Of a stretch of DNA of 11,808 nucleotides, positions 8,921 through 10,024 are shown in pieces. This stretch comes from a virus (taxonomy: Monodnaviria > Loebvirae > Hofneiviricota > Faserviricetes > Tubulavirales > Inoviridae): the IMG/VR virus record IMGVR_UViG_2563366858_000001; one strand, written 5' to 3'. The first letter of the stretch is position 1, and each line of letters opens with the position of its first letter. The position numbers were made by a program, and so were the translations under genes. The notes beneath the pieces were generated by a model. It searched no databases and was not told the origin of the DNA. It worked only from the letters and a program-made list of their open reading frames with translations.

Positions 8921-10024
8921 ATGAGAAAAAAGATGCCGGACTTGATTACTGATACATTGAAAGTAGTTACTTCTTTTTTTGTGGCATTAGTCCTCAATAA
9001 GTTTTTATCTATATTTAGGAAAAGACAACTTTACTTATCCTGTTGGAACTCCTTGAGTAAAACCTCAATATCTGACAATGCAATAGTAATAAATGCATCA
9101 GTATTTAATAAAGGTAAGGATAAAGAAAAAAATGTAGAAATAAAAGTCCCAAACGGTATGTCTTGTACTGTAATTGCAAGTGATCATGATGCAACTACCG
9201 AAGGTTCTTTTGTGAAGATAGATAGAATATTAGCAAATAAAAAAATATCCATGGTGCTCTTGATTGAAGGAACAAGAGTTCTTGATAAAAGTACCATGCC
9301 TTCCATAAGATCAGAAGATACTGACGGGAAAACATACCTTTCAAAAGACTCAGTGCCACCGAGTGCAGGTTCTTTTATTTTAGGCGGTGCTATTTTTGCT
9401 GCATTTTTCAGTTATATGGTCATCAGTATCCAAACAGAAGACAACCCTCTCGCGGGCCCATTGAAAGCATATAACTACATGATTTATAACAATATGTACA
9501 ATTCTGGACTTTCGATTAATCCTATAGGTAATGGACTGATAACTGAAAATTACAATCTAAGAGCGAATGAATACCCTATTGAAATAATAGATGCCAAGAT
9601 AGAAAAAAATCAAATAATGTTCAAATTTAGAATAATTAATAAAACATCAGAAGCACTGAAAGTTTCAGGCGGATGGAGAATATATAAAAACTTTCAATAT
9701 ATTTCCGAACATGTTGATACATTTGATTATAAAGATGAAAAGAAAAGAGAAGAAGAAGAAATAAGGGTGTATAAGAAATACAATGTGGAATTTGTTAATG
9801 ATAATGGATATCTTATGGAAAAACCGAAAGAAAGGGTTGAAGTTCCTGCAAATTCAGTTGGCTATATTATAATAAACAGAAAATACTCTCCAAGCATTAC
9901 TTATAATGACCTAAACATCGAGTTTAACTTTAGTGGTGGTTCAGGTGAAATATACCAAGAAGCAGATATGCTTTTTACAGCTAAGAATTCTAATATAAGC
10001 AGTACTATATTAGACAAGAAATAA
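8921..10024 (+). CDS. AT-rich hypothetical protein with N-terminal TM segment and a second internal TM segment, 367 aa (accessory/cargo gene)
   Basis: Long ORF with markedly low G+C (spot counts of 60-nt stretches give roughly 20-30% against about 50% in hipA). Asn/Lys/Ile-rich composition. Predicted TM1 around residues 14-31 and TM2 around 149-168. No recognisable catalytic motif. An alternative start at M5 (ATG 8933) is possible. Confidence 0.6.
   Translation: MRKKMPDLITDTLKVVTSFFVALVLNKFLSIFRKRQLYLSCWNSLSKTSISDNAIVINASVFNKGKDKEKNVEIKVPNGMSCTVIASDHDATTEGSFVKIDRILANKKISMVLLIEGTRVLDKSTMPSIRSEDTDGKTYLSKDSVPPSAGSFILGGAIFAAFFSYMVISIQTEDNPLAGPLKAYNYMIYNNMYNSGLSINPIGNGLITENYNLRANEYPIEIIDAKIEKNQIMFKFRIINKTSEALKVSGGWRIYKNFQYISEHVDTFDYKDEKKREEEEIRVYKKYNVEFVNDNGYLMEKPKERVEVPANSVGYIIINRKYSPSITYNDLNIEFNFSGGSGEIYQEADMLFTAKNSNISSTILDKK

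What the first reader, a model, noticed from the sequence alone, without database searches (positions are those of the whole stretch)
8921..10024. Strongly AT-rich 367-aa two-TM protein carried as phage cargo: candidate undescribed accessory function
This gene has no counterpart in the canonical Ff gene set. It is much lower in G+C than the rest of the prophage and the host genes (roughly 20-30% against about 50% by spot counts), pointing to separate acquisition (a moron). The protein has an N-terminal membrane anchor, a second TM segment near residue 150, and a large Asn/Lys-rich C-terminal region with a Glu/Lys-rich stretch (DEKKREEEEIR), but no motif I can recognise. Filamentous phages often carry virulence or superinfection-exclusion/defence genes at this position, between the repressor and attP; CUS-1 carries a virulence-associated gene (puvA) somewhere in its genome, though I cannot confirm any relationship.
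Basis: partly seen in the sequence, partly recalled or inferred. Interest (0 to 1): 0.8.

Follow-up and report, generated by a model that had tools for sequence, protein, structure and literature searches.

The report
Swappable membrane-protein cargo of filamentous prophage
This AT-rich gene is a real, self-contained cargo cassette at the end of a CUS-1-like filamentous prophage; it encodes a two-pass inner-membrane protein from a small, uncharacterised family that keeps turning up in prophage and genomic-island spots where anti-phage defence genes sit, so it is a good untested candidate for a new phage-resistance protein.

Summary
ORF 8921-10024 (367 aa; RefSeq starts at 8933, 363 aa) is 31.7% G+C, against 42% for the phage core and 48% for hipA. 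It has two TM helices, is under purifying selection (dN/dS about 0.10), and lies inside a dif-integrated CUS-1/Ypf-like inovirus prophage.

It matches no Pfam, NCBIfam, PADLOC or PDB entry. The only hit is PHROG 17621, function unknown. The AlphaFold model (pLDDT 80.6) shows TM1, a conserved beta-sandwich, TM2 and a variable alpha/beta-sandwich domain, with no catalytic fold.

New findings:
- The gene plus its leader (8822 to about 10025) is an exchangeable cassette. Near-identical E. coli prophages carry a 29%-identical family member (UTI89/RS218, i.e. CUS-1), a REase-type nuclease plus DUF6953, or other genes between the same breakpoints.
- Family members are the terminal, repressor-strand gene in seven inovirus settings with at least three unrelated Rep types. 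They also sit next to P2-type gpD beside PADLOC candidate systems, and between PDC-S06/NACHT and PDC-S31.
- The gene is AT-poorer than its surroundings in 15 of 15 loci.

puvA is the pIII-like gene, not this one, and orf140 is backbone, not a partner. The best reading is a single-protein, envelope-level phage exclusion or defence determinant (confidence about 0.5). This is inferred, not tested.

The parts
8921..10024 (+). Target ORF, 367 aa (alternative and RefSeq start ATG at 8933, 363 aa). Two-TM protein, PHROG 17621, otherwise unclassified.
8822..10025 (+). Exchangeable cargo cassette: the gene plus its own AT-rich leader. Sister prophages carry other genes between the same breakpoints.
   Evidence: Homology to L022/L026/L027/L028 ends at 8821 and, in L026/L027/L028, resumes at 10022-10029
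8824..8853 (+). Perfect 12-bp-arm palindrome (ATATTACCCTAG gttaa CTAGGGTAATAT) just after the orf140 stop, at the left cassette boundary. Possible terminator/insulator or operator.
   Evidence: RNA fold -17.9 kcal/mol, z -4.85
8854..8920 (+). AT-rich cassette-specific leader (the whole 8820-8920 intergenic stretch is 24.8% G+C). No consensus sigma-70 promoter was detected on the + strand.
8936..9013 (+). TM helix 1 (residues 6-31), followed by the family-invariant basic motif FR(K/I)RQLY.
9029..9337 (+). Conserved beta-sandwich domain (residues 37-139), predicted cytoplasmic. Carries the family motifs NKGKDKEKN, IDR and SEDxxGK; superfamily-invariant N63, E69, S131, G136.
9368..9436 (+). TM helix 2 (residues 150-172), preceded by the conserved VPPSAG motif.
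9452..10015 (+). Variable C-terminal domain (residues 178-365), predicted periplasmic: helices plus a beta-sandwich with an inserted charged helical hairpin (includes DEKKREEEEIR). Mean pairwise identity in the family is 23%, against 54% for the N-terminal domain.
10031..10057 (+). dif-like site (GGTTCGCACAATGACGTTATGCTAAAG), backbone sequence at the right cassette boundary.
10055..10097 (+). 17-bp-stem hairpin followed by UUUU. Terminator-like element shared by all cargo variants.
   Evidence: -29.1 kcal/mol, z -5.17
10112..10125 (-). XerC arm of dif (ACATTATGCGCACC on the + strand), marking the prophage/chromosome junction next to hipA.
530..557 (-). [quoted passage not shown]
7854..8300 (+). 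HTH (Cro/C1-type) repressor-like gene, first gene of the + strand (lysogeny-side) block that ends with the target.
8397..8819 (+). orf140, a membrane protein (PHROG 4174). Phage backbone, not part of the cassette.

Best explanation
The gene is a stand-alone, horizontally exchanged cargo cassette (a moron) in the variable accessory slot of a dif-integrated CUS-1/Ypf-like inovirus. It sits on the repressor strand, so it is probably expressed in the lysogen. It encodes a bitopic-like inner-membrane protein with two TM helices. The short acidic N-terminus would face the periplasm, the conserved beta-sandwich domain would be held on the cytoplasmic face between TM1 and TM2, and the fast-evolving C-terminal alpha/beta-sandwich domain would lie in the periplasm.

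The most likely function is envelope-level protection of the lysogen against other phages, by a single protein with no enzymatic domain. The variable periplasmic domain would recognise an incoming phage component or the host entry machinery. The conserved TM pair plus cytoplasmic domain would then either block genome entry (superinfection-exclusion type) or oligomerise and compromise the membrane (abortive-infection type).

Shown: the gene is real and under purifying selection; the cassette boundaries and allele replacement; the recurrent position in mobile-element hotspots; the domain architecture; the absence of known homologs.

Inferred: the topology (positive-inside rule), expression in the lysogen, and all of the anti-phage function and mechanism.
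For: (1) Cassette behaviour. 95 E. coli genomes carry the pII-repressor-orf140 backbone. Downstream of position 8821 they carry this allele (17 genomes), a 29%-identical full-length family member in UTI89/NU14/RS218 (10 genomes), a REase_DpnII-MboI nuclease plus DUF6953 (24 genomes; Pfam 7e-59, PADLOC Aga_Helical-REase 1e-34), or a 155+123-aa pair. Homology resumes at 10022-10029.

(2) Recurrent hotspot residence. Family members are the last + strand gene in seven inovirus settings: window, UTI89/L022, L005, L008, L019/L021, L020 and L023. Their Rep proteins differ: Phage_CRI, Phage_GPA and Rep_trans. Family members also lie beside P2-type gpD, next to PDC-M38A/B (1e-260, 8e-79) in L012 and next to a GmrSD_N/NsnA-like nuclease (4e-32) in L018. 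In L009 the gene lies downstream of PDC-S06 (3e-160) and a NACHT ATPase and directly upstream of PDC-S31 (4e-40). Others are on a conjugative plasmid next to TacAT and an integrase and next to an integrase in L025.

(3) Architecture. The N-module is conserved and the C-domain variable: 54% against 23% mean pairwise identity, and dN 0.11 against 0.20. This is the pattern expected of a conserved effector or anchor with a diversifying recognition domain. A second tier of about 300-330-aa relatives shares only the TM1-sandwich-TM2 module.

(4) Topology signal. There are 3-4 K/R and no D/E after TM1 in 19 of 19 members, and the N-tails are acidic.

(6) Composition. The gene has lower G+C than its surroundings in 15 of 15 loci, by 7-23 points, even in 60% G+C Pseudomonas. 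This is typical of mobile cargo.

(7) Precedent. Vibrio inoviruses have a defined variable locus enriched for defence systems (PMC11630473).
Against: There is no experimental evidence of any kind, and no homology to any validated or candidate defence protein: PADLOC gave zero hits for the target, the CUS-1 allele and eight distant relatives.

Guilt by association rests on a handful of loci. Several contexts (L004, L006, L011, L016) are uninformative.

No convincing sigma-70 promoter was found in the leader, so expression in the lysogen is assumed.

The topology is inferred from charge bias only. If translation starts at 8921, the N-tail gains three basic residues, which weakens the N-out prediction.

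A highly charged helical hairpin is unusual for a periplasmic domain. Cargo hotspots also carry non-defence genes such as virulence factors and toxin-antitoxin modules.
Confidence: 0.5

Rival explanations
1. Lysogenic-conversion or fitness factor acting on the host envelope rather than on phages. The membrane protein would alter cell-surface or envelope physiology (for example Tol-Pal, pili, stress tolerance or colonisation), which would account for the modest in vivo fitness effects reported for CUS-1/Ypf prophages.
For: CUS-1 and YpfPhi are reported to give moderate fitness advantages during infection, and their end-of-genome ORFs have no assigned function (PMC4266046). The carrier strains are mostly human isolates. 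CTXphi carries its toxin genes at the other (attR-adjacent) accessory end, showing that inovirus end slots can hold virulence genes. The protein has two binding-type beta-sandwich domains and no enzyme fold.
Against: The fitness phenotype in CUS-1 was mapped to puvA (pIII-like), not to this slot. Family members occur in soil and rhizosphere Pseudomonas P2-like prophages, in marine bacteria and on plasmids, which argues against an animal-host-specific role. The alternative cargo in the same slot includes a defence-type nuclease.
Confidence: 0.17
2. A function that benefits the mobile element itself: exclusion limited to related inoviruses or plasmids, or an addiction or maintenance role. For example, a membrane protein that blocks TolQRA- or pilus-dependent entry of competing filamentous phages, or that penalises loss of the element.
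For: It is positioned in the repressor-side block of seven inovirus settings. Inoviruses integrate in tandem and compete for dif. A 76%-identical copy sits in a small non-phage element at dif. Allele replacement between near-identical phages (29% identity) fits incompatibility or immunity-type diversification.
Against: Its presence in P2-like tailed prophages, in a chromosomal island flanked by candidate defence systems, and on a conjugative plasmid is hard to explain by an inovirus-specific function. There is no antitoxin-like partner and no consistently conserved neighbour.
Confidence: 0.18
3. Immunity or protective protein against membrane-targeting antibacterial toxins (T6SS effectors, pore-forming bacteriocins) rather than against phages.
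For: One Proteus homolog lies about 1 kb from an Hcp gene with two small unannotated ORFs. The protein is an inner-membrane protein with a variable periplasmic domain.
Against: This is a single locus at a contig end. No toxin or effector gene is consistently adjacent. Immunity proteins usually travel with their cognate toxin, whereas this gene travels alone.
Confidence: 0.05
4. Decaying or selectively neutral hitch-hiking DNA: an AT-rich ORF with no current function.
For: The gene is rare (17 of 5426 complete E. coli genomes). One episomal copy has a disrupted reading frame, and the P. putida copy appears split.
Against: dN/dS is 0.10 between alleles. Full-length conservation holds down to 25-30% identity across genera, with invariant motifs. 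The model folds confidently (pLDDT 80.6).
Confidence: 0.03

Closest known systems
The 369-aa hypothetical protein in the same slot of CUS-1-bearing E. coli UTI89/NU14/RS218 (WP_001555908.1, Q1RBQ0_ECOUT, W817_08715); probably the 'orf1' of CUS-1 mentioned in PMC4266046
   Same: Same family (29% identity over the full length, E 4e-45), same two-TM/two-sandwich layout, same slot between orf140 and the dif-like site, and the same near-identical phage backbone.
   Different: A highly diverged allele whose DNA is not alignable apart from a 42-nt patch. It is also uncharacterised, so it gives no functional information. The equation with 'orf1' is inferred from position, because the original paper was not available.
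Prophage superinfection-exclusion and abortive-infection membrane proteins (own knowledge: T4 Imm/Sp, P22 SieA, HK97 gp15, lambda RexB, Pf PfsE)
   Same: A small or medium inner-membrane protein with no enzymatic domain, encoded on the lysogeny side of a prophage as a single gene, and predicted to act at the envelope.
   Different: No detectable sequence or fold relationship: the PHROGs scan gave only an unknown-function family, and Pfam, PADLOC and PDB gave nothing. The TM-sandwich-TM-sandwich architecture, with a conserved cytoplasmic Ig-like domain, is not described for those proteins. Function is untested.
Accessory-gene hotspot of Vibrio filamentous prophages (PMC11630473) and P2/P4 defence hotspots (Rousset et al. 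2022, cited there)
   Same: A defined variable locus flanked by conserved backbone, with cargo swapped between near-identical phages and partly made up of defence genes. Family members also sit in the gpD-adjacent region of P2-like prophages.
   Different: Here the hotspot is in enterobacterial CUS-1/Ypf-type phages. This cargo family is not in DefenseFinder-type catalogues as far as the PADLOC v2 models show.
CBASS/Pycsar-type transmembrane effectors (own knowledge)
   Same: Short TM modules that could kill by membrane disruption; no catalytic domain.
   Different: Those effectors carry a nucleotide-sensing domain and depend on a partner cyclase. No partner gene is conserved here, and no homology was found.

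Membership tests
PHROG 17621 (phage protein family, unknown function) | Full-length match to the family HMM | tested here: met
   E 7.5e-212, residues 5-367 against profile positions 1-363 of 363. The family carries no function.
Known or candidate anti-phage defence systems (PADLOC-DB v2.0.0) | Match to any of the 5027 defence-protein HMMs | tested here: not met
   Zero hits at E<=1 for the target. Zero hits at E<=0.01 for the CUS-1 allele and for 10 relatives across the family.
Any curated protein family (Pfam-A, NCBIfam) or solved structure | Sequence match above threshold | tested here: not met
   Pfam: 0 families at E<=0.1. NCBIfam: 0. PDB by phmmer: 0 at E<=10. PDB by profile: best E 0.025, a NEAT beta-sandwich, not significant.
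Moron (independently acquired prophage cargo cassette) | Present or absent, or replaced, between otherwise near-identical phage genomes at fixed breakpoints | tested here: met
   Backbone identity of 94-98% ends at 8821 and, in the loci that extend past the cargo, resumes at 10022-10029. Four different cargos occupy the slot.
Moron (independently acquired prophage cargo cassette) | Base composition distinct from the flanking phage genes | tested here: met
   31.7% G+C against 42.0% for the phage core. The family gene is lower than its flanks in 15 of 15 loci.
Moron (independently acquired prophage cargo cassette) | Own promoter and terminator | tested here: inconclusive
   Hairpins bracket the gene (-17.9 and -29.1 kcal/mol), and the downstream one is followed by a U-run. 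No consensus sigma-70 promoter was found on the + strand of the leader.
Superinfection-exclusion proteins | Inner-membrane localisation | tested here: inconclusive
   Two predicted TM helices and a charge bias consistent with N-out/C-out. Prediction only.
Superinfection-exclusion proteins | Expressed from the prophage and blocks phage DNA entry without killing the cell | not testable with these tools
   Needs expression data, plaque assays, and adsorption and DNA-entry assays.
Abortive-infection membrane effectors | Infection-triggered membrane depolarisation or cell death | not testable with these tools
   Needs infection time courses at high and low MOI and membrane-potential dyes.
CUS-1 PuvA | Identity with the puvA gene product (virion receptor-binding, pIII-like protein) | tested here: not met
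   PMC4266046 describes puvA as encoding the virion protein required for receptor binding. By position I equate that with window ORF 4002-5714 on the - strand, not with this ORF.
Canonical Ff/inovirus core gene set | Homology to pI-pX core proteins | tested here: not met
   The core genes are identified elsewhere in the window (Phage_CRI, Zot, Secretin). The target matches none of them and also occurs outside inoviruses.

The most novel reading that the evidence does not exclude
The protein founds a previously unrecognised family of single-gene, membrane-embedded anti-phage immunity proteins. A hypervariable periplasmic Ig-like sensor would be coupled through two TM helices to a conserved cytoplasmic beta-sandwich, which executes exclusion or abortive infection without any enzymatic domain. 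Filamentous phages, P2-like phages, plasmids and dif-linked elements would trade alleles of it as interchangeable cassettes. That would make inovirus end slots in Enterobacteria a reservoir of new defence genes.
Probability: 0.3. Interest if true: 0.75.

Novelty: new variant of a known kind. Interest (0 to 1): 0.58.

Why it matters
CUS-1 and YpfPhi are the filamentous prophages of extra-intestinal pathogenic E. coli and pandemic Yersinia pestis. Their end-of-genome ORFs have been listed as "unknown function" since 2002-2007.

This analysis shows that the slot is a cassette-exchange hotspot, and that its most distinctive occupant belongs to a small family spread across mobile elements (208 representatives among 1.8 billion). 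That family co-localises with defence genes. A vague "hypothetical protein" thus becomes a sharply defined candidate that can be cloned as a single gene.

If the gene protects against phages, three things follow. It would add a non-enzymatic membrane mechanism to the defence repertoire. It would help explain why hosts retain costly filamentous prophages. It would also matter for phage therapy against ExPEC lineages.

Tried and rejected
- **Known families.** The target had no hit in Pfam, NCBIfam, PADLOC or PDB (sequence and profile). Distant relatives were also negative.
- **Internal duplication.** hhalign of the two sandwich domains against each other gave probability 0.6%, so I dropped the duplication idea.
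- **Phage collection.** The INPHARED phage collection had no megablast match to either the accessory region or the phage core, so no annotated phage record could be used.
- **Original CUS-1 paper.** It was not held, so the equation of this slot with CUS-1 'orf1/orf1a' rests on the review plus the UTI89/RS218 sequences.
- **Literature by identifier.** Searches for the accession numbers and PHROG ids found nothing.
- **P0014 context.** The look-up failed.
- **Two-gene system with orf140.** Rejected, because orf140 stays with every cargo type and is absent from non-CUS contexts.
- **Conserved partner gene.** Rejected. The upstream genes differ between loci: 63, 74, 98 or 128 aa, or none.
- **Relationship to puvA.** Rejected.
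- **Promoter in the leader.** The scan found nothing convincing on the + strand.
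Full report
**1. What is in the window**

The window holds a filamentous (inovirus) prophage integrated at the chromosomal dif site next to hipBA.

On the minus strand lie:
- the secretin pIV (1429-2673)
- the Zot/pI ATPase (2673-3698)
- a pVI-like gene
- a pIII-like gene (4002-5714)
- coat and ssDNA-binding genes
- the pII replication protein (6630-7682; Phage_CRI 1e-73)

On the plus strand, diverging from pII, lie:
- an HTH repressor-like gene (7854-8300)
- a 140-aa membrane ORF (8397-8819, PHROG 4174)
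- the target ORF (8921-10024)

A perfect 28-nt dif site sits at 530-557. After the target come a dif-like site (10031-10057), a strong hairpin (10055-10093) and the XerC arm of dif (10112-10125), then hipA. The same prophage occurs in tandem copies in E. coli SCU-101 and as a 9,565-bp circular "plasmid" in strain TUM14759, which is presumably the replicative form.

**2. Checking the observation**

The ORF is real and at the stated coordinates (367 aa). RefSeq uses the in-frame ATG at 8933 (363 aa, "hypothetical protein"), and most homologs start at that position.

| Region | G+C |
|---|---|
| Target ORF | 31.7% |
| Leader (8820-8920) | 24.8% |
| orf140 | 46.8% |
| Phage core (1429-7682) | 42.0% |
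| hipA | 47.8% |

GC3 is 26% for the target, against 35-50% in the neighbouring genes.

Two hydrophobic helices (about 6-31 and 150-172) appear both in hydropathy analysis and in the AlphaFold model. Against a 98%-identical allele (strain EC36) there are 15 synonymous and 6 nonsynonymous changes, giving omega of about 0.10. The gene is therefore under purifying selection as a protein.

**3. What the protein looks like**

There is no hit in Pfam, NCBIfam, PADLOC or PDB sequences. The only match is PHROG 17621, "unknown function".

An AlphaFold2 model built on 19 homologs is confident (mean pLDDT 80.6). It shows:
- TM1 (residues 6-31)
- a beta-sandwich (37-139)
- TM2 (150-172)
- a C-terminal domain of helices plus a second beta-sandwich, with a charged helical hairpin inserted at 257-286 that contains the DEKKREEEEIR stretch

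Within the family, the juxtamembrane motif FR(K/I)RQLY, the loop NKGKDKEKN, IDR, SEDxxGK and VPPSAG are invariant or nearly so. Across a 44-member superfamily alignment, L37, N63, E69, S131, G136 and N240 remain invariant. Mean pairwise identity is 54% for the first domain and 23% for the C-terminal domain.

In all 19 members the segment after TM1 carries 3-4 K/R and no D/E, whereas the N-tail is acidic. By the positive-inside rule, the conserved sandwich is cytoplasmic and the variable domain periplasmic. This is an inference, not a measurement.

**4. How rare it is, and who has it**

A word-indexed search of 5.8 billion proteins found only 21 clusters: Escherichia, Enterobacter, Proteus, Providencia, Morganella, Pectobacterium, Pseudomonas and metagenomes. 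An exhaustive profile search of 1.84 billion representatives found 208 with E <= 1e-3 and 37 with E <= 1e-30. These include a second tier of about 300-330-aa proteins that share only the TM1-sandwich-TM2 module. Every name available for any member is "hypothetical protein". No paper in the searchable library mentions the accessions or PHROG ids.

**5. The gene is a swappable cassette in a cargo hotspot**

Ninety-five of 5,426 complete E. coli genomes carry the pII-repressor-orf140 backbone at 80% coverage or more, but only 17 carry this gene. In sister prophages, DNA identity of 94-98% runs up to window position 8821, two bases past the orf140 stop codon. In the three loci that extend past the cargo (L026, L027, L028) it resumes at 10022-10029, at the dif-like site. 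Between those points the content differs.

| Strain type | Cargo in the slot | Genomes |
|---|---|---|
| Window allele | this 367-aa protein | 17 |
| UTI89, NU14, RS218 (CUS-1 hosts) | 369-aa protein, 29% identical over the full length (E 4e-45), i.e. another allele of the same family | 10 |
| M6 type | 264-aa REase_DpnII-MboI protein (Pfam 7e-59; PADLOC Argonaute-associated Helical-REase 1e-34) plus a DUF6953 protein | 24 |
| APEC E19019 type | two small unknown proteins (155 and 123 aa) | about 15 at 99% identity or more |

Each cargo brings its own leader, usually with a hairpin right after orf140. In the window this is a perfect 12-bp-arm palindrome (8824-8853; -17.9 kcal/mol, z -4.85). 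A shared 17-bp-stem hairpin with a U-run follows the cassette (-29.1 kcal/mol, z -5.17).

orf140 is therefore backbone, and the target is a self-contained moron.

**6. Where family members sit elsewhere**

- **Inoviruses.** The family gene is the last gene on the repressor strand in seven inovirus settings: the window, UTI89/L022, Providencia L005, Morganella L008, L020, L023 and Pseudomonas peli L019/L021. Their replication proteins belong to at least three unrelated families (Phage_CRI, Phage_GPA, Rep_trans) and their morphogenesis modules differ.
- **P2-like prophages.** In a rhizosphere P2-like prophage the gene follows gpD, a Dam methylase and a two-gene PADLOC candidate system (PDC-M38A 1e-260, PDC-M38B 8e-79). 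In P. putida it lies next to gpD and a GmrSD_N/NsnA-like nuclease (4e-32).
- **Chromosomal island.** In L009 it lies downstream of PDC-S06 (3e-160) and a NACHT ATPase, and directly upstream of PDC-S31/DUF2971 (4e-40).
- **Other mobile contexts.** It is found on an Enterobacter conjugative plasmid near TacAT and an integrase, next to an integrase in L025, and in a small non-phage element at dif (a 76%-identical copy in L011, with a dif match upstream).
- **No fixed partner.** No neighbouring gene is consistently conserved, so the gene acts, or at least travels, alone.
- **Composition.** In all 15 loci examined the family gene has lower G+C than the rest of the locus, by 7-23 points.

**7. Interpretation**

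The shown facts are:
- a real, selected, membrane-protein gene
- with a conserved TM/cytoplasmic module and a fast-diverging predicted periplasmic domain
- exchanged as a cassette
- located on the lysogeny side of prophages and in hotspots that also hold defence or defence-candidate genes

These facts fit a single-protein phage-resistance determinant acting at the inner membrane, either superinfection exclusion or an abortive-infection-type membrane effector. Literature precedent exists for inovirus accessory hotspots enriched in defence systems in Vibrio (PMC11630473). Reviews of CUS-1/YpfPhi and UPphi phages state that these variable end regions are of unknown function (PMC4266046, PMC7307601).

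The function itself is inferred by association and architecture only, and I put it at about 0.5. The alternatives, with my estimates, are:
- an element-selfish exclusion or maintenance role limited to inoviruses (0.18)
- a host-envelope or virulence-type conversion factor (0.17)
- immunity to membrane toxins (0.05)
- junk (0.03, contradicted by selection and conservation)

**8.

The moron reading and the "no recognisable motif" statement are confirmed.

The puvA lead resolves differently. According to PMC4266046, puvA encodes the receptor-binding virion protein (pIII-like), which I equate with window ORF 4002-5714. The genuine CUS-1 connection is that CUS-1-bearing strains carry a divergent allele of this same family in the same slot.

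The proposal to test 8397-10024 as a unit should be replaced by testing 8822-10100 alone.

**9. Novelty and score**

The phenomenon, a prophage accessory hotspot carrying candidate defence cargo, is a known kind. The protein family, its architecture and its repeated capture by unrelated inoviruses, P2-like phages and dif-linked elements are undescribed. I rate it a new variant of a known kind, with interest 0.58. It is not a surprise in principle, but it is a well-delimited, single-gene, directly testable candidate in medically relevant prophages.

Noticed in passing
window 530-557 (-), 10031-10057, 10055-10097, 10112-10125: The prophage is bounded by a perfect dif site on the left. On the right there is a dif-like site, a very stable 17-bp-stem hairpin, and an inverted XerC arm. 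This is the paired, inverted dif-like arrangement typical of XerCD-dependent (CTX-type) inovirus integration, and the hairpin may double as terminator and ssDNA attP or origin structure.
   Followed up: partly
window 8397-8819 (+): orf140 (PHROG 4174, no Pfam, PADLOC or NCBIfam hit) is a conserved membrane protein of the phage backbone, kept upstream of four different cargo types. Its function is unknown. dN/dS against UTI89 is 0.08.
   Followed up: partly
L002 (E. coli SCU-101) 5642-6778: One of the tandem prophage copies carries a single CDS that matches both Zot/pI and the secretin. This looks like a deletion or fusion derivative, possibly a defective 'cheater' copy within the array.
   Followed up: no
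L001 (NZ_CP128883.1, 9565-bp circular record): A record annotated as an untypable plasmid is the complete circular phage genome (replicative form). In it the target ORF is interrupted (pieces 8716-8931 and 8952-9565/1-253), which is either a frameshift or stop, or a sequencing error.
   Followed up: partly
L027 (E. coli M6) 5761-6832: The alternative cargo in the same slot is a REase_DpnII-MboI-domain protein (matching PADLOC Argonaute-associated Helical-REase models and the N-terminus of PDC-S35) plus a DUF6953 protein. It is present in 24 complete E. coli genomes and is a second untested defence candidate in this hotspot.
   Followed up: partly
L028 (APEC E19019) 5805-6689: A third cargo type (155-aa plus 123-aa unknown proteins) also occurs at about 81% identity, mostly on large E. 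coli plasmids (73 of the 105 matching places), next to an ECs_2282-family zinc-binding protein. The same cassette therefore circulates between inoviruses and plasmids.
   Followed up: no
L005 9651-9842 and L008 9662-9853: Providencia and Morganella inoviruses with unrelated Rep proteins (Phage_GPA and Rep_trans) share a nearly identical 63-aa gene just upstream of their family member (E about 1e-39), and both sit next to a JmjC/ROXA host gene. This suggests the regulatory and cargo end is exchanged as a module between different inovirus backbones.
   Followed up: no
L011 8166-11158: A 76%-identical copy of the target lies in a roughly 3-kb element at a dif site with no phage genes, only an HTH_23/28/32 protein and a 128-aa ORF. 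A similar HTH_23-type gene plus small ORF precedes the homolog on the Enterobacter plasmid (L003). This may be a small Xer-dependent integrative element.
   Followed up: no
window 10202-11581 versus L002 and L027: hipA next to the prophage is intact in the window and in UTI89, but is annotated as truncated in SCU-101 and M6. The dif-adjacent hipBA locus seems prone to damage where these phages integrate.
   Followed up: no
window 698-946 and 1092-1340 (-): Two 82-aa ORFs lie between dif and the secretin gene, at the other accessory end of the phage (annotated as hypothetical in RefSeq copies). They probably correspond to the YPO2280a/YPO2281-type ORFs of unknown function mentioned for YpfPhi/CUS-1.
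   Followed up: no
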